A DNA stretch of 11,587 nt from a bacterium (GTDB lineage Bacteria > Hydrothermota > 32-111), in NCBI GenBank assembly GCA_050239825.1, contig JBFXGO010000007.1:1-11587 (forward strand), given 5' to 3'. This document shows positions 112 through 11,587 of this stretch, piece by piece. Numbering within the stretch: the stretch's first letter is position 1; the number at the start of each line of letters is the position of its first letter. The translations under genes and the position numbers were made by a program. A model generated the notes under the pieces. The model saw nothing but the letters and a program-made list of their open reading frames with translations. It was not told the origin of the DNA and made no database searches.

Positions 112-453
112 ATGGTAATAAAAAAAGTTGCAGATGTGCCGAAGAATGAAGTAACAGACGAAGGAACAAAGAGTGTAACACGACAGATTCTTATAGGTAA
201 GGATGACAATTCAAATAATATTATTATGAGGCTTTTCACGCTTGCTCCGGGAGGTCATTCTCCGCTTCACACTCATAATTACGAACATCTTGTAAAAGTA
301 GAGAAGGGAAGGGGAATTGCCGTATCCGATAGAGGCGAACAGGAGATAGGGGCAGGCGACATAATATATGTAAAACCCAATGAAATTCATCAATTTAAAA
401 ATAATTCTAATGTGGAATTCCAGTTCATCTGCGTTATTCCCAATAAGGTTTGA
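112..453 (+). CDS. Cupin-domain protein (Cupin_2-like, metal-binding)
   Basis: 113 aa with cupin motifs 'FTLAPGGHSPLHTHNYEHLVKVEKGRG' and 'GDIIYVKPNEIHQFKN'; strong RBS. Confidence 0.9.
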   Translation: MVIKKVADVPKNEVTDEGTKSVTRQILIGKDDNSNNIIMRLFTLAPGGHSPLHTHNYEHLVKVEKGRGIAVSDRGEQEIGAGDIIYVKPNEIHQFKNNSNVEFQFICVIPNKV

Positions 454-455
454 TT

Positions 456-3104
456 ATGAGAAAGATTCTCTTTGTATTGCTTGTCATAGTTTTAAGCATC
501 TCTGCATCAGCTGAATTTTCTCCTCTTTCGGCATATTCGGAAAGATTTGTCTCTCCTGAGATTGCATTTTCGGTGGCAGAGGAGAAGATGAAAAGTATTT
601 ATGATGATTTTAAATTCATAGACAAACCCATAGCTCTATACTGGCTGGATGATTCGATATATGCCTACATGTTTTTAACTGACTTCAGCGGAAGTATGCC
701 CAATCTGACATCCATTCTGAGCGAAATTGAGAGAAGGAGGGGCGGCGATGAAAAATCTCTCTCTCTTATCGACTGCGCAGGATATATAATTGTCTCCGCG
801 AGGTATGAGAATAATGTGATTCTCGAGTATGGAAGAGGAGTTCCCTACTCTATCTCGCGCTTTTCTGTTCTTCAAAAGAAATTCAATCTTCCTGATAGAG
901 GGAAACTCTACTATACCGGACATGGAAGATTCTTCTATGAGTATAATGACTGTGCATTTGACCTTGCTGAGTATAAGATTATCAAGAAGGTCCCCTTCTT
1001 ATCCACCGACATAATAAGCACAAAATGGAAATCTGTTTTAAACAAAAAATATTCAATATCTTCATTAAAAGGAACCGCATATATTCCGGATGTGCCTTTT
1101 GTTTTGTGGTCATACGGCTGTTCCCCCACAACATCGTCAATGATATTTTCATACTATGATTCAAGAGGTTACGGCGACTTGGTTGATTTTTACTTCACCA
1201 GATTTGATGATGTGATGGGCATATACAGGTATAATGTGCCTTCGGCTCAGAGACAGCTCTCTGTATTGATGAATACTGACTCTCTGTTGGATGGAGGAAC
1301 ATCCGTTTACAGCATCAAGGGAGGCAATGAAACATTCGCCAATACTTCGCATCCCTATAGTTTTACCTGCGGTTCTCATGTATATGGTCAGGCAGGAGAA
1401 AAATTCTTTTATCCCTTCATAAAAAATGAAGTTGATTCTCTCCGTCCCGCCCACTGGGCAGTGCTCAACTACTATTTTGAGGGCGATTACATAGGACACT
1501 CTATTGTCTCTATAGGATATGATGACGGAGGCAGCGACACTCTGATACAGGTGCATAATACATGGGACTATACGGAGCCATTCTGGAATCTATATACCAA
1601 TGTCGGCGGAGATCTTTCCTACTCATGTTTTTACGAAATAAAACCGGCTGGAGGCAACTCTTACAGAAAGGGCAGTATAGATATAAACGGCAATAAATAT
1701 TTCAAAGGTCTTAAAGGCATAGTCAGATTTGATGATCTGTCCGACTCCTTGAATTCAATTAAATTATATTATTCCGATAATAATTTTGCAACCAAGAATC
1801 TTGTGGGAGAATTCTCAGATTCAATCTTTGTGATTAATCCGGGATTTTCAGGCTCAGTAAATCTGGCGGCTGAGTTTTTGAAAGTCGGCGGCGGGCTGCT
1901 GGCGACAGACGGCACATACTCTCCCGTCTCTTTCGGCTCTTTTGATGACACAAACAATCTGCAGTTGCTGTCATACACTTATGACAATTCTTCCGCATAT
2001 TTTTCAGAAATGAAAAACGACACACTGATTCTCCTTGGTTCAAAAGGAATAAGCGAATATGCGACAGGGGATATAACTTTTCTTGAACCCATATCAAACA
2101 GAAATGACGGCAACACTTATAAATTTCTGAGTTTCATAAACGATACTGTTTTAGTTGCCGGAACAGAAAACGCGCTCTTCACGATAAAGAGAGCTGACGG
2201 ATACACATTTATTGATACTTTTATATTTTCGGGTTCTTTAGTTGATTTTGAGTACAGAGACAAAGTCGCCTTTTTAGTGACTCCCGGAGCATTCTATGCA
2301 GTGAATGTGAATGCGGATTTCTCATTGAGTTGCGTTGACACATTTATTGAAGGGTCGAGAAAACAGTACACATCAGTCGCGCTGAATGATTCGTTTGTTT
2401 ATCTGACAGACCTTCTCAGCGGCATCCAGATAATGAAGAGCTCGTATCCGTCGACCGGTTTTTACGGAGCCTCGCTCTTATCAACTTCTTACAACGAAGC
2501 ATTTGCTGATATAAAGAGGGACACTCTCTATCTTGCATGTTTGTCAAACGGTCTTTCGGTATATTCAATCGACTCGACAGGTTCTTTGAATTTTTCAGGA
2601 AACTATTTAATAGGAACAGTCAATAAGGTAGAGGCACTTGAAAGCGGAATCGCCTGCATAAACAATTCTCTGGGTGTCTCTTTGAGAAGATATTCAACCT
2701 TCACGGAGCTTTCTCATATCTATACGAATACAAAAATAACGGATGTTTTTGAAGATGTTTCAGAACACAGGATTTTTCTCTCCGATAATGCAAACGGACT
2801 ATTCATCGGTTCATTTGACCCGCTTGCAGGAGTAAAGGAGAGTCCGGATGCCGATGGTCTGTTTTTTTCTGTGAAGCAGTTTTCAAGAGACAATATAGTG
2901 ATTGATTTTCATTCGGATGTCACTGAATACGGAAGAGTGACTCTCTTTGACCTTTCGGGAAGAGTGGTTGAAATGTCGGAAATCTACTTCAGAGCGAACT
3001 CTTCTGAGGCGGTTTCTGCGAAAAACCTCAGAAGCGGCATCTATTTTGTAAAAATAGAGAGCAGGGGAGTCAATCGGGTATTTAAAACGACTCTTATAAA
3101 ATAA
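456..3104 (+). CDS. Secreted papain-fold cysteine peptidase (C10/C39-like) with putative prodomain, beta-propeller-like (LVIVD-type) region and T9SS type-A-like C-terminal sorting domain
   Basis: Signal peptide MRKILFVLLVIVLSISASA (ATG 456 preferred over TTG 450). Putative catalytic motifs WSYGCSPT (Cys codon 1119-1121), GHSIVSIGY (His 1497-1499) and QVHNTW (Asn 1557-1559). Repeats such as 'VYLTDLLSGIQI' and 'LYLACLSNGLSVY'. C-terminus 'VTLFDLSGRVV...LRSGIYFVKI...K'. Confidence 0.7.
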   Translation: MRKILFVLLVIVLSISASAEFSPLSAYSERFVSPEIAFSVAEEKMKSIYDDFKFIDKPIALYWLDDSIYAYMFLTDFSGSMPNLTSILSEIERRRGGDEKSLSLIDCAGYIIVSARYENNVILEYGRGVPYSISRFSVLQKKFNLPDRGKLYYTGHGRFFYEYNDCAFDLAEYKIIKKVPFLSTDIISTKWKSVLNKKYSISSLKGTAYIPDVPFVLWSYGCSPTTSSMIFSYYDSRGYGDLVDFYFTRFDDVMGIYRYNVPSAQRQLSVLMNTDSLLDGGTSVYSIKGGNETFANTSHPYSFTCGSHVYGQAGEKFFYPFIKNEVDSLRPAHWAVLNYYFEGDYIGHSIVSIGYDDGGSDTLIQVHNTWDYTEPFWNLYTNVGGDLSYSCFYEIKPAGGNSYRKGSIDINGNKYFKGLKGIVRFDDLSDSLNSIKLYYSDNNFATKNLVGEFSDSIFVINPGFSGSVNLAAEFLKVGGGLLATDGTYSPVSFGSFDDTNNLQLLSYTYDNSSAYFSEMKNDTLILLGSKGISEYATGDITFLEPISNRNDGNTYKFLSFINDTVLVAGTENALFTIKRADGYTFIDTFIFSGSLVDFEYRDKVAFLVTPGAFYAVNVNADFSLSCVDTFIEGSRKQYTSVALNDSFVYLTDLLSGIQIMKSSYPSTGFYGASLLSTSYNEAFADIKRDTLYLACLSNGLSVYSIDSTGSLNFSGNYLIGTVNKVEALESGIACINNSLGVSLRRYSTFTELSHIYTNTKITDVFEDVSEHRIFLSDNANGLFIGSFDPLAGVKESPDADGLFFSVKQFSRDNIVIDFHSDVTEYGRVTLFDLSGRVVEMSEIYFRANSSEAVSAKNLRSGIYFVKIESRGVNRVFKTTLIK

Positions 3105-3158: not shown

Positions 3159-3767
3159 ATGGCACGAAAAAAAAGAATTGCAAACAGAAAGATAAAATTG
3201 ATAGGAAAATCCGAGAAAAAAATGGAACTTCTTACATCGGATGCAAACAATTTAAAACAGCTTGACGAAGAGAAGCAAAATCTTATAAAGCTTCTCGAGC
3301 AGAAGGATACCGAGCTCAAAGAGCAGAGGGATTCTTTTATGAGAAAACTCGCGGAGAGCGAGAATGCGAAGCGGCTACAGAAAAAAGAAACAGAACACAT
3401 GATAGAGAATTCAACTTTTAAGCTATTCAAAGAGATTCTCGCAGTTGTTGATAATTTTGACAGGGCTATCGAACATGCCGTGAAGACGGATGACAAGGAG
3501 AAGATAATTGACGGGATAAGAATGATAGACAAACAGTTTCATCAGGTATTCGAAAAGCTCGGAGTCACTCAATTTGAGTCACGAGGTCAAAAATTTGACC
3601 CTTCAAAACATGAAGCTATATCAGTTGTTTCAAACACATCTCTCTCAGACGGCGAGGTGGTGGAAGAGCATCAGAGAGGGTACATGTACGGAGATAAAAT
3701 TCTTCGTGCCGCAAAAGTGGTCGTCAATAAGATTGACAGTGAAATTAAAGAAGAAATAAACGATTAA
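3159..3767 (+). CDS. grpE: Nucleotide exchange factor GrpE
   Basis: Coiled coil 'RKLAESENAKR', 'ILAVVDNFDRA', 'GQKFDPSKHEAI', 'QRGYMYGDKILRAAKVVV'; directly upstream of dnaK. Confidence 0.96.
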   Translation: MARKKRIANRKIKLIGKSEKKMELLTSDANNLKQLDEEKQNLIKLLEQKDTELKEQRDSFMRKLAESENAKRLQKKETEHMIENSTFKLFKEILAVVDNFDRAIEHAVKTDDKEKIIDGIRMIDKQFHQVFEKLGVTQFESRGQKFDPSKHEAISVVSNTSLSDGEVVEEHQRGYMYGDKILRAAKVVVNKIDSEIKEEIND

Positions 3768-3779
3768 CGGAGGATAAAA

Positions 3780-5711
3780 ATGGCAAAGGGTAAAATCATC
3801 GGAATCGACCTTGGAACAACCAACTCCTGCGTGTCAGTGATGGTAAACGGGGAACCAGTTGTAATTCCAAATCCTGACGGAGCGCGCACAACACCTTCTG
3901 TTGTCGGCTTCCAGAAAAACAAGGAAAAAGTGGTGGGTATTCTCGCAAGGCGTCAGCAGGTTACGAACCCGGAAAATACCGTCTTCTCAATCAAGAGATT
4001 TATGGGAAGACGCTTTAGAGAAGTTCCTGAGGAGATTAAACTTGTTTCATACAATGTTGAAGAGGGACCCAACGGGGATGTCAGGGTAAACATAGACGGC
4101 AAACTCTATTCTCCGCCGGAAATATCCGCAATGGTTTTACAGTATCTTAAAAAATCTGCTGAAGATTATCTCGGAGAAGAGGTTACTCAGGCAGTTATAA
4201 CCGTTCCTGCTTACTTTAATGATTCCCAGAGGCAGGCGACAAAGGATGCAGGCAAGATAGCAGGTCTTGAAGTTTTGAGAATCATCAATGAACCGACAGC
4301 GGCATCTCTTGCTTATGGCCTCGATAAAAAGAAAAATGAGAAGATAGCAGTCTATGACCTCGGCGGAGGCACATTCGATATATCCATCCTTGAAATAGGA
4401 GACGGAGTATTTGAAGTGCTCTCCACAAACGGAGACACTCACCTCGGAGGCGACAATTTTGATGAAAAGATAGTTGAATTCATAGCCAACACATTCCAGA
4501 GGGATAACGGCATAGACCTGAGAAAGGATAAAACATCTCTGCAGAGGCTCAGAGAGGCGGCAGAGAAGGCTAAGATGGAGCTCTCCACAGTAATGGAGAC
4601 AACCATAAATCTTCCCTTCATAACAGCCGATGCATCCGGACCCAAGCATCTTGAACTGACTCTTTCAAGGGCGAAGCTTGAATCTCTTGTGGAAGACCTT
4701 TTGAAACGCACTCTTGAACCGTGCAAGAAGGCGCTTGATGATGCTAAACTGACAAAAGCCGAAATAGACGAAGTTGTTATGGTGGGCGGCATGACAAGAA
4801 TGCCCTCTGTCCATAAACTTGTCAAAGACTTCTTTGAAAAAGAACCCCACAAGGGAATAAATCCCGATGAGGTGGTGGCGATAGGAGCGTCAATTCAGGC
4901 TGGAGTCTTGGCTGGAGATGTAAAAGATGTTCTGCTTCTTGATGTGACTCCGCTTTCTCTCGGAATTGAAACACTGGGCGGAGTGTTAACAAAGATCATT
5001 GAAAGAAACACCACAATACCGGTAAAAAAACAGCAGGTCTTTTCGACTGCATCTGATTCGCAGACCGCAGTCACAATAAATGTGCTTCAGGGAGAGAGAG
5101 AGATGGCATCAGATAACCGCACTCTCGGAAAATTTGAACTTATAGGGATACCTCCTGCACCGAGAGGCATACCTCAGATTGAAGTTTCATTTGACATAGA
5201 TGCAGACGGCATTCTCCATGTATCTGCAAAGGACAAGGCAACAGGCAAAGAGCAGTCCATTGTCATCACATCTTCAAGCGGACTCTCTGATTCAGAGATT
5301 GACAAGATGGTAAAAGAGGCCCAGATGCATGAAGAGGAGGACAAGAAAAAACGTGAACTTGTCGAAACGAGAAATGATGCCGAGCAGTTCATATATACAG
5401 CCGAAAAATTCATGAAAGAGAACCGCGAAAAAGTAAAGCCAGACCTCATGGATGATGTTACAAAGGCGATAAAATATCTCAGGGACATTATGATTACGGA
5501 TAACCTTGAGGATATAAAGAACCGTCTTGATGCCGCTAAACAGTCATTCTACAGAATATCAAACGACCTCTATTCGCAGACAGAGGCACAGCAGGAAAAT
5601 CCAAAGCAGGGGCAGGCAAATGAAAATCAGCAGGCCGGAGCCAAAGACCAGAAAGAGTCCGCTGAAGAGGCAGATTATGAAGTAGTGGATGACGAGGAAA
5701 AGAAGAATTGA
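3780..5711 (+). CDS. dnaK: Molecular chaperone DnaK (Hsp70)
   Basis: [60 protein letters not shown]-terminal [17 protein letters not shown]. Confidence 0.99.
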
Positions 5712-6832
5712 GCGGCAAAGACTATTACAAGATATTAGGACTTGAAAAGAATGCAACGCCCGATGAGATAAAGAAATCCTATCGGGCGCTTGCAAAAAAA
5801 TACCATCCCGACCTCAACAGAGAAAACAAGGAGGAATCCGAGAAGAAATTCAAGGAGGTCTCTGAAGCTTATGAAGTATTGATCGACCCGCAGAAGAAAT
5901 CCATCTACGACCAGTACGGTTATGAAGGAGTCTCTCAGCAGTTCGGACAACAGGGATTCAGATGGGAGAACTTTTCGCATTATGATGACATATCCGACAT
6001 ATTCGGAGATTTGTTCGGAAACCGCAGGGCGGGAGGAGGAGAATCAATATTTGAGTCATTTTTCGGCGGAGGAAGGCAGTCAAGGAGTCAAAATCCGGAC
6101 AAGAGGGGAAGCGACATAAAGATAGTTCTTAAACTCACTCTTGAGGAGATGTATACCGGCATTGATAAAACAATCAAATATCACAGGCATGAAAAATGCC
6201 CTACTTGCGGCGGAGTGGGAGGATTAAAATCAGATCTGAAGAGATGCGCCGACTGCAACGGCACCGGTCAGAGGAAGTACAAAACACAATCAATATTCGG
6301 CACAATGATGCAGGTTGCCGTGTGCCCGACCTGTCAGGGAGAGGGTACAATCATAGAAAAAAAATGCAAAGACTGTTACGGAGAGGGAAGAATCAAGAGA
6401 GAGCACACAGTAAAGGTGCATGCTCCTGCCGGGGTCTTTGACAATGCATATATGCGGATGGAGGGCGAGGGCAATATAGGCAAGAGAGGCGGATTAGCTG
6501 GAGACCTTATTATTGTCTTTCAGCAGGAAGCAAACAGCAGGTTCACAAGAGAGGAGAACAACCTCACCTCAGAGCTTCGCATTTCGTATCCCCGCGCGGT
6601 TCTCGGTTCCGAAGAGGAGATATTGGGTATTGATGAAAAAACCATCAAGCTGAAGATTCCGGAAGGAACTCAGAATGGAAAAGTTTTTGTCCTCAAAGGA
6701 AAGGGAATGCCGGAATTGCATTCAAACAGGCATGGCGACCTCTTTGTCAAAATCACTGTGGATGTTCCAAAAAAAGTTGACCAGAAGACAAAAAATCTTC
6801 TGAAAGAACTGGAAAAGAATCTTCATTTGTAA
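5708..6832 (+). CDS. dnaJ: Chaperone DnaJ (class A)
   Basis: J domain with HPD, G/F-rich region, four CxxCxGxG motifs ([32 protein letters not shown]). TTG start overlaps the dnaK stop (TTGA). Confidence 0.98.
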
Positions 6833-9884: not shown

Positions 9885-10817
9885 ATGATGAGCAGAATAC
9901 TTGTCACGGGCGGAGCAGGTTTTATAGGAAGCAATCTATCGAAAAAACTTATTGAAGACGGCAATAGTGTCAGAATACTCGACAATTTTTCAACAGGCAA
10001 GAGGGAGAATCTCTCTGACATTATAGACAGGATAGATTTGATTGAGGGAGACATCAGAAGTTATCACACGGTAATGAAATCCCTAAAAGACATAGATTAT
10101 GTTTTTCATGAAGCGGCTCTTCCTTCGGTCCCCCGTTCGATTTATGACCCAATAACCTCCAATGATGTTAATATAGTCGGCACCCTCAATCTGTTGCAGT
10201 GTAGCAAGGATATGGATGTGAAAAAATTTATATTTGCATCATCCTCATCTGTTTACGGAGATAATATGGAGCTTCCCAAAAGAGAATCGATGAAGCCTGT
10301 TCCGAAATCCCCATACGCTCTTACAAAGCTTACAGGTGAGCACTATTGTTCTATTTTTCATAGAATCTACAACATGCCCACAATTTCCCTCAGATACTTC
10401 AATGTGTTTGGTCCCAATCAGGACCCGAATTCCCAGTATAGCGCATTTATACCCAAAATATTCAAGTCGGTCAAAAATAAAGGCAAGATAACGGTATTTG
10501 GAGACGGGAATCAGACAAGGGATTTCACATACATTGACAATGTCGTAAAAGCCAATATTCTGTCATTGTCAGCCAAGGAGAATGCTTACGGCGAATATTT
10601 CAATGTTGCGACTGGAAAATCAATATCAGTGAATGAGATAATCAGTTATGTTTTTGAAATAAGCAAAAAGCAGACAGAGGTCTCTTTTGAGCCTCCGAGG
10701 CCCGGAGATGTAAAGGATTCTCTTGCCGATATAAGCAAGATTGAAGAGAATCTGAATTACTCTGTCTCTGTCTTTGTGAGGGACGGACTCAAAAAGGCGA
10801 TGGAATACTACATTTGA
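9885..10817 (+). CDS. NAD-dependent nucleotide-sugar epimerase/dehydratase (extended SDR; WbpP/UDP-GlcNAc C4-epimerase-like)
   Basis: ILVTGGAGFIGS, 'FHEAALPSVPRS', 'ASSSSVYG', catalytic YALTK, 'LRYFNVFGPNQDPNSQY', 'GDGNQTRDFTYIDNVV'. The start could be ATG 9888. Confidence 0.93.
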   Translation: MMSRILVTGGAGFIGSNLSKKLIEDGNSVRILDNFSTGKRENLSDIIDRIDLIEGDIRSYHTVMKSLKDIDYVFHEAALPSVPRSIYDPITSNDVNIVGTLNLLQCSKDMDVKKFIFASSSSVYGDNMELPKRESMKPVPKSPYALTKLTGEHYCSIFHRIYNMPTISLRYFNVFGPNQDPNSQYSAFIPKIFKSVKNKGKITVFGDGNQTRDFTYIDNVVKANILSLSAKENAYGEYFNVATGKSISVNEIISYVFEISKKQTEVSFEPPRPGDVKDSLADISKIEENLNYSVSVFVRDGLKKAMEYYI

Positions 10818-10834
10818 GATTCTGAAAAATAAAA

Positions 10835-11075
10835 AAGGAGTGAATATAAAAAATTCCGATTCTTTTAATCATACTTGTGATGCTTGCGGGCTGTCTCTCA
10901 ATTGGAAATTCTTCGACTTTCACGAACTCTGAGCCATACTACAGAGGAGGATCGAATTCAACCGGAATCCAGGACTCAAAACACACAAAAATAATCTGGT
11001 CAATGACCCTTTCAAAAGACGAGCAGTTCATCTCATTTCCCACAGTGAGCGGAGGAAGAATTTTGTTTATTGATG
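10835..11075 (+). pseudogene. Remnant of a lipoprotein with a PQQ/BamB-like beta-propeller N-terminus; start codon lost and truncated at the repeat block
   Basis: SD AAGGAG 10835-10840, then ATAAAAAATT with no in-frame ATG (in-frame TAA 10847-10849). The frame then reads KIPILLIILVMLAGC (lipobox LAGC) and 'YYRGGSNSTG...IIWSMTL...FISFPTVSGGRILF', and runs into the repeats. The 3' boundary is approximate. Confidence 0.55.
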
Positions 11076-11104
11076 ATTTATTATTGAGTTGGGGACTGCT
11101 GTCG

Positions 11105-11321
11105 GGTGTAGCGTCGGCTCACACACTCCGCTTCGCCGCTTGATTTTTAGGGACGGTGGTTGCAAAAAGCTGCATTTTTTAGGGGCGACACGCTGGTGTA
11201 GCGTCGGCTCACACACTCCGCTTCGCCGCTTGATTTTTAGGGACGGTGGTTGCAAAAAGCTGCATTTTTTAGGGGCTACACGCGGGCATAGCGTCGGCTC
11301 ACACACTCCGCTTCGCCGCTT
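11105..11321. repeat. 90-bp tandem repeat, ~2.4 copies
   Basis: Core TAGCGTCGGCTCACACACTCCGCTTCGCCGCTT at 11109-11141, 11199-11231 and 11289-11321. 11105-11186 is identical to 11195-11276. The two full units differ at only 4 positions (11187, 11194, 11197, 11198). Confidence 0.97.
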
Positions 11322-11557
11322 AATCAAGATGGGTTAGCGTAGCAAGGGGAGAACCACTTGATGGGCGTCTGCGCGGAGCGTCCTCGCCGACTTTGAGCTT
11401 TCGAGCATCAATAAGATAATTAATTGCCTGAATCTTCACAAAGCATTGGCTGGGGTGAAATGTGCGCAAGCGCACATGATAGACACCTCGGGTTGCACCA
11501 GAACTTTGTGAAGATTACTGTAAAGACTAAATATTAATCAGCTCCCCTTATTAAGCT
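11293..11557 (+). ncRNA. Candidate structured non-coding RNA (or ssDNA-structured element), family unknown
   Basis: Manually found pairings: imperfect hairpin 11293-11391, UUCG-capped hairpin 11393-11411, long hairpin 11431-11516 with a 13-bp perfect base, and 11336-11351 complementary to 11542-11557. GU pairs and UUCG favour the + strand. Confidence 0.55.
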
Positions 11558-11587
11558 CATGGCACATGGCACACGGCTCAGGGCTGA
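11554..11587. repeat. Degenerate 7-nt tandem repeats (GGCWCAN), truncated by the window edge
   Basis: AGCTCAT GGCACAT GGCACAC GGCTCAG GGCTGA. Confidence 0.7.

What the first reader, a model, noticed from the sequence alone, without database searches (positions are those of the whole stretch)
11293..11557. Candidate novel multi-domain structured RNA with a long loop-to-3'-end pairing (pseudoknot-like or closing stem)
Seen in the sequence: (i) an irregular hairpin 11293-11391 (GTCGGC/GCCGAC, ACACTCCGC/GCGGAGCGT, CGCC/GGCG, ATCAAG/CTTGAT, GGTT/AACC). Its 16-nt loop AGCGTAGCAAGGGGAG (11336-11351) pairs at 14/16 positions (1 GU) with CTCCCCTTATTAAGCT (11542-11557). (ii) TTGAGCT-TTCG-AGCATCAA (11393-11411). 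(iii) An 86-nt hairpin at 11431-11516. This density of nested pairing in a non-coding, GC-richer block of an AT-rich genome seems unlikely by chance. I see no tRNA, tmRNA, RNase P or SRP signature. Inference: a functional ncRNA or a switch between alternative folds, possibly the RNA part of a mobile or defence system whose protein lies beyond the window.
Basis: partly seen in the sequence, partly recalled or inferred. Interest (0 to 1): 0.8.

Follow-up and report, generated by a model that had tools for sequence, protein, structure and literature searches.

The report
Unit of a genome-wide hairpin repeat
The folded stretch is not a one-off RNA gene but one unit of a hairpin-rich repeat that fills dozens of gaps between genes in this uncultured bacterium and is probably spread by the genome's own small transposases, so it is a new example of a known kind of repetitive DNA.

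Summary
The two long hairpins (11293-11391, 11431-11516) are real, and compensatory changes conserve their pairing. The small hairpin (11393-11411) and the 16-nt loop-to-3'-end pairing are peculiar to this copy: other copies do not keep them and they show no covariation. The region is not a single RNA gene. It is one A-B-C unit of a head-to-tail array, cut by an assembly gap at the window's end. The modular family has 121 A, 65 B and 61 C matches in 46 arrays (35 kb, 1.7% of the 2.1-Mb genome) and was found only in the same genus. It joins the 5' arm of hairpin A to a 33-nt sequence that also forms the inverted ends of one of four RAYT-like Y1 transposase genes. Arrays keep one orientation that follows GC skew (39 of 46), and a sister species has empty sites. 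Best reading: a lineage-specific mosaic intergenic repeat (BIME/BOX-like), probably seeded through single-stranded DNA by Y1 transposases and grown by tandem duplication. An RNA role is not excluded; no RNA data were available. The scan had already met this family on other pieces of this genome.

The parts
10877..11143 (+). 88-aa open frame: N-terminal remnant of a gene that is about 1 kb long and intact in a sister species; its body is replaced here by the repeat array
   Evidence: G002 carries a continuous ~1-kb coding stretch between the same flanks; no Pfam hit for the remnant
11103..11321 (+). 90-nt tandem repeat, 2.4 copies; each unit = truncated 5' arm of hairpin A + module R1a + start of the next A module
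   Evidence: (copies 1 and 2 are 98% identical)
11148..11180 (+). module R1a, copy 1: 33-nt sequence identical in type to the terminal inverted repeats of the Y1 transposase gene on contig C5
11238..11270 (+). module R1a, copy 2
11268..11414 (+). module A (121 matches in the genome, 100 near full length)
11293..11391 (+). hairpin A, 99 nt, three stacked helices; arms almost invariant within the genome, compensated in divergent and sister-species copies
11336..11351 (+). apical loop of hairpin A; variable, and replaced by other short hairpins in 11 of 98 unique near-full copies; its pairing to 11542-11557 is not conserved
11393..11411 (+). small hairpin (ii): present in this copy, not conserved
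11415..11520 (+). module B (65 matches, 42 near full length)
11431..11516 (+). hairpin B, 86 nt: outer 17-bp and inner 7-bp helices with five compensated pairs; the middle helix is not supported
11521..11587 (+). module C (61 matches): junction word shared with other modules, then four 7-nt repeats (11559-11586); unstructured

Best explanation
The 265 bases are one A-B-C unit inside a head-to-tail array of a genus-restricted mosaic intergenic repeat. Module A (11268-11414) holds a 99-nt hairpin, module B (11415-11520) an 86-nt hairpin, and module C (11521-11587) has 7-nt repeats. SHOWN: the family is multi-copy, modular and non-coding. The two hairpins are kept by compensatory change. Each array has one orientation, and that orientation follows GC skew. 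The arrays are missing from the same sites in a sister species. The arrays are physically joined to the terminal-repeat sequence (R1a) of a RAYT-like Y1 (HUH) transposase gene. INFERRED: new arrays are seeded, and modules are cut and rejoined, as folded single-stranded DNA on the lagging-strand template. One or more of the genome's four Y1 transposases would do this in trans. Arrays then grow and shrink by tandem duplication and unequal recombination. Any effect on neighbouring transcripts would be secondary. I put about 0.97 on 'unit of a genome-wide mosaic repeat, not a stand-alone RNA gene' and about 0.4 on the Y1-transposase step.
For: Copy number: 148 matches to 488 nt in the own genome; 159 blastn pieces in 46 arrays, 35,371 bases; nhmmer A 121, B 65, C 61. 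Grammar: units abut by 0-7 nt; variable strings such as A-B-C, A-76nt-C, A-B-105nt-A; further modules E (50 copies), X (48 copies, 45 in arrays), R, a junction word and a trailer. Structure: hairpin B has 5 compensated pairs, covariation 0.131 against 0.061 shuffled (0 of 500) and at most 0.037 slid. Hairpin A has 15 of 26 pairs compensated in 24 divergent copies against 5.8 +/- 1.5 shuffled (0 of 500). Polarity: 45 of 46 arrays have one orientation. 39 of 46 have the window's + strand on the G-rich strand (p 2e-6). This includes 14 of 17 arrays whose flanking frames are convergent or divergent, so transcription gives no cue (p 0.013). Turnover: of 5 loci compared, the sister species G002 has no array at 3: an intact gene at the window's locus, and spacers of about 98 nt and about 48 nt in place of the C3 and C9 arrays (1.7 kb and 0.9 kb by blastn). 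Transposase link: 4 PF01797 genes, the two scanned with best NCBIfam hit 'REP-associated tyrosine transposase'. Each is flanked by its own inverted repeats, which also occur as 120-300-bp doublets. The arrangement is kept in G001 and G002. Of 17 R1a copies, 2 flank the gene and 11 lie in or at arrays, all in array orientation, 6 at the 5' edge; arrays +/-150 nt cover 2.3% of the genome. Two R1a copies sit 120 and 30 nt upstream of the finding. Literature: Y1 transposition acts on single strands at the lagging-strand template and gives genome-wide orientation bias (PMC5027513, passages). RAYT-like genes flanked by long inverted repeats with moderately abundant repeat families are described (PMC3733652, passages).
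Against: No Y1 gene is flanked by A, B or C. R1a is in or at only 10 of 46 arrays. R1a is not a hairpin (DNA fold z +0.53), unlike classic REPs. Both Y1 proteins scanned score below NCBIfam's cut-off (73 and 56.6 against 80 bits). Y1 relatives occur in 29 of 41 genomes of the phylum, whereas A-B-C occur in 3 of 41, so the enzyme family does not predict the repeat. GC skew and gene direction are strongly correlated here, and the gene calls are my own long open frames. Strand of folding is unresolved: three fixed G.T wobbles favour the + strand, but energies slightly favour the - strand. As DNA, hairpin A on the + strand is no better than shuffles. The arrays come from a short-read metagenome assembly; no contig of the source run spans this array, so order and copy number inside it may be collapsed.
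Confidence: 0.6

Rival explanations
1. Co-transcribed RNA modules: the arrays are read through from the upstream gene, and the hairpins act at RNA level (3'-end protection, attenuation, processing sites or protein sponge), as proposed for BOX, ERIC and some BIMEs. Spread could still be by transposition.
For: Between tandem genes, arrays are sense to both neighbours in 14 cases and antisense in 2. Three fixed G.U-type wobbles lie on the + strand. Hairpins are well folded as RNA (B z -5.55, A z -1.97). BOX elements are transcribed and thought to alter co-transcribed genes (PMC3049150, passages).
Against: At the C3 locus the array lies after a terminator-like GC hairpin with a T-run and before the next gene's -35/-10. 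No terminator-like site and no excess of promoter-like sites in or beside this array (4 against 2.0 +/- 1.3; 0 terminators). 14 of 17 arrays with convergent or divergent neighbours still follow skew, which transcription does not explain. Copy number per locus varies from 1 to more than 6 units and sister species lack the arrays, so no fixed dose is needed.
Confidence: 0.2
2. Host-serving DNA sites: the hairpin modules are polar chromosomal motifs (binding sites for nucleoid, gyrase or fork-associated proteins) kept in one direction relative to replication.
For: Strong skew-linked polarity (39 of 46). The arms of hairpin A are nearly invariant in sequence in 87 copies while loops and flanks vary, as expected for a protein-recognised site. 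BIMEs bind host proteins (PMC2817692, abstract in search listing).
Against: Genus-restricted (0 of 38 other genomes). Present or absent between sister species at the same site. Very uneven spacing and array size. Arrays replace a gene body at this locus.
Confidence: 0.1
3. A passive satellite spread by recombination or an unknown enzyme, with the R1a junctions arising because Y1-type elements prefer to insert next to hairpin arrays (the reverse causal order).
For: A, B and C outnumber R1a about tenfold. 36 of 46 arrays have no R1a. Recurrent breakpoints lie at hairpin loops, as replication slippage would give. The 90-nt units here are 98% identical, so they are recent local duplications.
Against: Dispersal to 46 separate intergenic sites with uniform polarity needs some transposition-like step. 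R1a sits at the same edge (5') and in the same orientation in all 6 edge cases.
Confidence: 0.08
4. One reading: a single novel multi-domain RNA with a loop-to-3'-end pseudoknot or closing stem, or a switch between folds.
For: 14 of 16 complementarity in this copy; no Rfam match.
Against: No covariation and no better pairing than with shuffled partners. 38 of 91 loops lack the partner module. RNAalifold on 15 full A-B-C units gives two independent hairpins and no long-range helix to C. About 120 copies exist.
Confidence: 0.02

Closest known systems
REP/BIME repeats with RAYT (TnpA-REP) Y1 transposases of Enterobacteria and Pseudomonas (PMC3333891, PMC3116915, PMC5581495)
   Same: High-copy intergenic mosaic of hairpin modules plus linkers. 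Variable number of tandem units per locus. RAYT-like Y1 genes in the genome flanked by inverted copies of a repeat that is part of the mosaic. Lineage-restricted.
   Different: REPs are 20-40-nt imperfect palindromes with a 5' GTAG and alternate in orientation inside BIMEs. Here the hairpins are 86-99 nt, all units point one way, the gene-flanking repeat (R) is not a palindrome, and A, B and C do not flank any Y1 gene.
RAYT-like genes flanked by long terminal inverted repeats with moderately abundant repeat families ('TIRYT', Di Nocera et al. 2013, PMC3733652)
   Same: Exactly the arrangement of the four Y1 genes here: 24-37-nt type-specific inverted ends, 8-17 copies per type counted for R1a, R2 and R3, and short doublets.
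   Different: That description concerns the end-repeats only; their incorporation into long head-to-tail arrays of other structured modules is not in the passages I read.
BOX elements of Streptococcus pneumoniae and S. suis (Croucher et al. 2011, PMC3049150)
   Same: Modular A-B(n)-C grammar with optional and repeated modules. S. suis has extra modules of 115-133 nt. Strong predicted folding. Intergenic. Leading-strand excess.
   Different: In BOX, boxA and boxC pair with each other; here A and C do not pair and each hairpin is self-contained. BOX elements are single elements, not kb-long arrays. Leading-strand share is 61% there against 85% here. No sequence relation was looked for beyond Rfam.
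ERIC/IRU (127-bp imperfect palindromes) and Neisseria Correia/NIME mosaics (recalled from general knowledge and named in earlier scan notes; not read here)
   Same: About 100-nt imperfect hairpins in intergenic DNA; mosaics delimited by short repeats.
   Different: Different lineages and sequences; those are bounded by inverted repeats and are mostly single insertions.

Membership tests
REP/BIME-RAYT system | Repeat is a 20-40-nt imperfect palindrome with conserved GTAG 5' of its foot (PMC3333891, PMC3733652) | tested here: not met
   Hairpins are 99 and 86 nt. The foot of A is preceded by [G/A/T]TAGC, so only TAG is constant. R1a does not fold (z +0.53).
REP/BIME-RAYT system | Units alternate in orientation (REP / inverted REP) within a cluster | tested here: not met
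   45 of 46 arrays have all pieces in one orientation.
REP/BIME-RAYT system | The Y1 transposase gene is flanked by members of the repeat family | tested here: inconclusive
   Met for module R (all 4 genes; also in G001 and G002). Not met for A, B and C (no hit within 1.5 kb of the 4 own genes, or in the 9 fetched loci around relatives' Y1 genes).
REP/BIME-RAYT system | Transposase belongs to the RAYT clade of Y1/HUH enzymes | tested here: inconclusive
   PF01797 over cut-off for all 4. NF047646 is the best NCBIfam hit over its whole length but at 73 and 56.6 bits, under the cut-off of 80; the proteins carry an extra C-terminal helix-turn-helix-like part. No tree was built.
TIR-flanked RAYT-like elements (TIRYT) | Y1 gene bounded by long terminal inverted repeats that also form a moderately abundant repeat family | tested here: met
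   R1a 17 copies, R2 12, R3 8. R1b-type ends flank the C14 Y1 gene and form four doublets of about 215 bp. R2 and R3 also form doublets. This applies to module R beside the finding, not to the finding's own A-B-C.
BOX-type modular repeats | Ordered modules with optional or repeated middle module; outer modules pair to close the element | tested here: not met
   The modular grammar is met. Pairing of the outer modules is not: A loop/C pairing has no covariation and no A-C helix appears in the consensus fold of 15 units.
MITE | Terminal inverted repeats and target-site duplication around a short non-coding element | tested here: not met
   The only inverted repeats in 10000-11587 are one unrelated 80%-complementary pair further upstream and the arms of hairpin B. 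Arrays have unlike ends (leader-type and trailer-type modules). Two filled/empty comparisons show unrelated spacers and no clear duplication.
Known structured RNA families (Rfam 15) | Covariance-model match at or near the gathering score | tested here: not met
   0 matches in the window. In E-value mode the only match was a 13.4-bit chance hit to a mitochondrial rRNA model, E 2.7.
CRISPR array | Short identical repeats separated by unique spacers | tested here: not met
   Units abut by 0-7 nt, and the longer gaps are themselves recurring modules. No cas search was made.

The most novel reading that the evidence does not exclude
The arrays are the product of a so far undescribed way in which RAYT-like Y1 transposases work. 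Instead of scattering short REP doublets, the enzyme(s) would build replication-polar, head-to-tail arrays of long structured hairpins (A, B) next to a single copy of their own end sequence. Alternatively, the same arrays are co-transcribed and act as structured RNA modules. Either would make this WOR-3-type lineage a natural system for studying how hairpin DNA is amplified at replication forks.
Probability: 0.15. Interest if true: 0.6.

Novelty: new member of a known kind. Interest (0 to 1): 0.35.

Why it matters
As a finding it corrects a tempting false lead: dense nested pairing in a GC-rich non-coding block is here the signature of a repeat family, not of a new RNA gene. The family itself is of moderate interest. 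It takes 1.7% of a small genome, breaks short-read assemblies, and replaces a gene body at this locus. It is gained or lost between sister species. It shows one of the strongest replication-linked polarities I know of for a bacterial intergenic repeat. The junctions with the end-repeats of RAYT-like genes give a testable hypothesis for how such mosaics arise in a phylum with hardly any cultured members.

Tried and rejected
- RNA evidence: no RNA holder listed for the stretch, so expression could not be examined.
- Rfam in permissive mode gave only a chance hit.
- Loop-to-C pseudoknot: rejected.
- Small hairpin (ii): rejected as a family feature.
- Middle helix of hairpin B (window 11450-11457 with 11485-11492): 60.7% paired and no compensation, so rejected.
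- Within-genome covariation in hairpin A: uninformative because the arms hardly vary (0 compensated pairs).
- TnpB-type partner: PF07282 not found in the genome, which is 98.97% complete.
- Coding reading: the three open frames inside the array have no Pfam match; the best is E 0.052.
- Strand of folding from energies or from sporadic G.T against A.C counts: equivocal (10 against 10 pair columns in A2).
- Locus comparisons for the C48 and C50 arrays: flanks fall on different contigs or at contig ends in G001 and G002, so they are uninformative. G001 flanks of the C3 and C9 arrays end at contig ends, which fits arrays there but does not show them.
- Laying contigs of the source run: no contig spans the array. 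One contig each shows a joint going back 320 and 128 bases, as tandem units would give. Summed depth over modules (up to about 14,000 against 19.7 on the unique flank) mixes copies and organisms and is not a copy number.
- Structure prediction, complex prediction and the large protein searches were not used; nothing here needed them.

Full report
**What is in the sequence.**
The minimum-energy fold of 11293-11557 holds both large hairpins (-87 kcal/mol, z -2.88; reverse strand z -3.50).
- Folded alone, hairpin B (11431-11516) is far better than shuffles both as RNA and as DNA (z -5.55 and -4.35).
- Hairpin A (11293-11391) is modest (RNA z -1.97; DNA on the + strand z -0.76).
- The small hairpin 11393-11411 is not better than chance (z -1.31).
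- The block is GC-richer than its surroundings.
- ARAGORN finds nothing. Rfam finds nothing at gathering scores and only a 13-bit chance hit in permissive mode.

- The 5' arm of hairpin A is also the first third of a 90-nt tandem repeat just upstream (11103-11321, 2.4 copies; copies 1 and 2 are 98% alike).
- The window is G000:C14:1-11587 and stops at a run of ten N. After the gap a partial B-C copy follows, then about 140 unique bases, then an ordinary gene.
- A search of the organism's own 2.1-Mb assembly with 488 bases gave 148 matches.
- My blastn gave 159 pieces that merge into 46 arrays totalling 35,371 bases, 1.7% of the genome, many at contig ends.

**Anatomy of the family.**
I cut the window's unit into A (11268-11414), B (11415-11520) and C (11521-11587). 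nhmmer finds 121, 65 and 61 matches, of which 100, 42 and 53 are near full length.
- In arrays the modules abut by 0-7 nt and occur in variable strings: A-B-C, A-76 nt-C, A-B-105 nt-A and others.
- The gaps are themselves recurring modules:
  - a 105-nt module E (50 copies), which often opens an array;
  - a 22-nt junction word;
  - a trailer with 7-nt repeats;
  - a 25-nt perfect mini-hairpin X. It has 48 copies, 45 of them in arrays and all in array orientation. It sits in at least six sequence contexts, including the apex of hairpin A in six copies.
- Module C ends in three or four 7-nt repeats.
- The open frames inside the array have no Pfam match.

**Are the structures conserved?**
- Hairpin B. 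41 of the 42 near-full copies were aligned; I left out the one whose 5' arm is replaced by X.
  - The outer helix (17 pairs) is paired in 98.4% of cells with three compensated pairs.
  - The inner helix (7 pairs) is paired in 97.6% with two compensated pairs.
  - The middle helix is not supported (60.7%).
  - The covariation score is 0.131 against 0.061 +/- 0.005 for shuffles (0 of 500 as high) and at most 0.037 when partners are slid. The compensated states are linked in sub-families, so they may stand for few events.
- Hairpin A within the genome. 87 of 98 unique near-full copies were aligned; the 11 with other apices were left out. The arms are almost invariant, so there is no covariation signal. 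Hairpin (ii) is paired in only 57.6% of cells.
- Hairpin A among divergent copies. The set had 24 rows: the window, all 16 copies of at least 95 nt found in loci of two sister species, and 7 divergent own copies that I picked.
  - 15 of 26 pairs show compensation against 5.8 +/- 1.5 in shuffles (0 of 500).
  - Covariation is 0.192 against 0.083, and at most 0.072 when slid.
  - One very divergent copy replaces the sequences of helices 2 and 3 outright yet keeps them paired.
- The long-range pairing fails.
  - Of 91 standard loops, 53 have a C module in the same unit.
  - Their mean is 11.0 of 16 pairs against 11.05 with partners shuffled.
  - The window's 14 of 16 is the top of the distribution.
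  - RNAalifold on 15 complete A-B-C units returns two independent hairpins.

**Distribution and turnover.**
By DNA search the family is in both other genomes of the genus and in none of 38 further genomes of the family, class and phylum. In G001 most hits sit at contig ends. An exact-pattern scan of species representatives found 15 loci. Most are in a record titled as a WOR-3 bacterium, and a few are in assemblies labelled as unrelated taxa.

I compared five loci with the sister species:

| Locus | G002 | G001 |
|---|---|---|
| Window | Intact gene of about 1 kb where the window has the array; the 88-aa frame 10877-11143 is its stump | Another gene and no array |
| C3 array (1.7 kb by blastn) | Spacer of about 98 nt | Flanks end at contig ends |
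| C9 array (0.9 kb by blastn) | Spacer of about 48 nt | Flanks end at contig ends |
| C48 and C50 arrays | Uninformative | Uninformative |

At the C3 locus the array lies between a terminator-like hairpin and the next gene's promoter-like hexamers.

**Polarity.**
- 45 of 46 arrays have a single orientation.
- In 39 of 46 the strand shown in the window is the G-rich strand of the surrounding 30 kb (binomial p 2e-6). Counted by contig, 27 are all-with-skew, 4 all-against and 2 mixed.
- Between tandem open frames, arrays are sense to both in 14 cases and antisense in 2.
- Where the neighbours are convergent or divergent, 14 of 17 arrays still follow skew (p 0.013).
- Caveats: gene calls are my own long frames, skew stands in for replication direction, and the two are correlated.

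**Link to transposases.**
- The genome has four PF01797 (Y1) genes and no TnpB-type gene.
- The two I translated (273 and 259 aa) have the HUH and tyrosine motifs (read from their translations) plus a C-terminal helix-turn-helix-like part. Their best NCBIfam hit, over the model's whole length but below its cut-off, is 'REP-associated tyrosine transposase'.
- Each gene is bracketed by inverted copies of its own 24-37-nt sequence (R1a, R1b, R2, R3). The types counted have 8-17 copies, and R1b, R2 and R3 also form 120-300-bp doublets.
- The C5-type gene keeps its R1a-like ends in G001 and G002.
- R1a is the 33-nt part of the window's 90-nt repeat (11148-11180, 11238-11270).
- Of 17 R1a copies, 2 flank the gene and 11 lie in or at A-B-C arrays, always in array orientation, 6 at the 5' edge. 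Arrays with 150-nt margins cover 2.3% of the genome. R2 also occurs inside two arrays.
- Against a simple REP-RAYT reading:
  - A, B and C never flank a Y1 gene.
  - R1a does not fold.
  - Y1 relatives are present in 29 of 41 genomes of the phylum, most of which lack A-B-C.

**Reading.**
I conclude that the finding is one unit of a lineage-specific mosaic intergenic repeat. The most likely mechanism is an inference from three observations: the polarity, the R1a junctions, and the recurrent breakpoints at hairpin loops. On that reading the elements are seeded and rearranged as folded single strands at the lagging-strand template by Y1 enzymes and then amplified locally. The 98%-identical 90-nt units here suggest recent local duplication, as do contigs of the source run that join the unit's end back to its start.

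This fits published behaviour of Y1 transposases (PMC5027513, PMC3333891; passages read) and the described class of RAYT-like genes with long inverted ends (PMC3733652; passages). The modular grammar resembles BOX elements (PMC3049150; passages). An RNA-level role cannot be excluded, and no RNA run was listed.

**In print and earlier notes.**
A full-text search for WOR-3 or Stahlbacteria together with repeat terms listed WOR-3 papers with no occurrence of 'repetitive' or 'intergenic repeat' (listing only). The RAYT/REPIN search showed no paper on this lineage among the 12 listed of 41 (listing). Earlier notes of this scan describe the same family on other pieces of this genome as BIME/BOX/ERIC-like. 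I had stated the same reading before seeing them and tested it independently. The texts shown do not mention the Y1-end junctions, the polarity or the failed pseudoknot.

Noticed in passing
window 10877-11143; L044 2905-3830 (- strand): The 88-aa frame before the array is the N-terminal stump of a gene that is about 1 kb long and intact in the sister species G002 (repeated beta-propeller-like motifs by eye). The array has replaced its body here, or the assembly gap hides more.
   Followed up: partly
G000 C14:63662-64483, C5:4330-5109, C18 about 43129-43650, C56 about 11447-11899: Four RAYT-like Y1 transposase genes, each with its own inverted end sequence. Three of the end types also form short doublet elements of 120-300 bp (for example C14:36253-36467, C19:6838-6981, C33:9176-9455). 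One gene lies 52 kb downstream on the window's own contig.
   Followed up: partly
for example L059 642-666 (apex of a module A); 48 places in G000: A 25-nt perfect mini-hairpin (7-bp GC-rich stem) is inserted in at least six sequence contexts inside the arrays. Three copies lie outside arrays, beside what look like tRNA 3' ends (C7:59640, C7:59803; a similar context at C27:45379). It behaves like a tiny mobile hairpin of its own.
   Followed up: partly
L117, L118, L121, L122, L124, L128-L130: Exact matches to the module A core occur on contigs of assemblies labelled Vulcanibacillus, Gammaproteobacteria, Pacearchaeota and an unclassified bacterium. This is either mis-binned contigs of relatives of this organism or transfer.
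   Followed up: no
L045 1060-1095: In G001 the coding region upstream of the orthologous downstream gene holds a run of 7-nt repeats resembling the reverse complement of module C's 7-nt repeats.
   Followed up: no
window 450-3104: 884-aa protein with a type IX secretion sorting tail and a weak C39-like peptidase match; next to it the grpE-dnaK-dnaJ cluster (3159-6832).
   Followed up: no
L144 4040-4170 and other arrays: Module E carries an internal 35-nt unit present one to three times, and the trailer module is built of 7-nt repeats. Short-period duplication recurs at several levels of the family.
   Followed up: no
window 11095-11587: In contigs of the likely source run the summed word depth over the repeat modules reaches about 14,000 against 19.7 on the unique flank, and the 11.3-kb contig stops at 11125. 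The repeat is very abundant in that community and breaks the assembly.
   Followed up: partly
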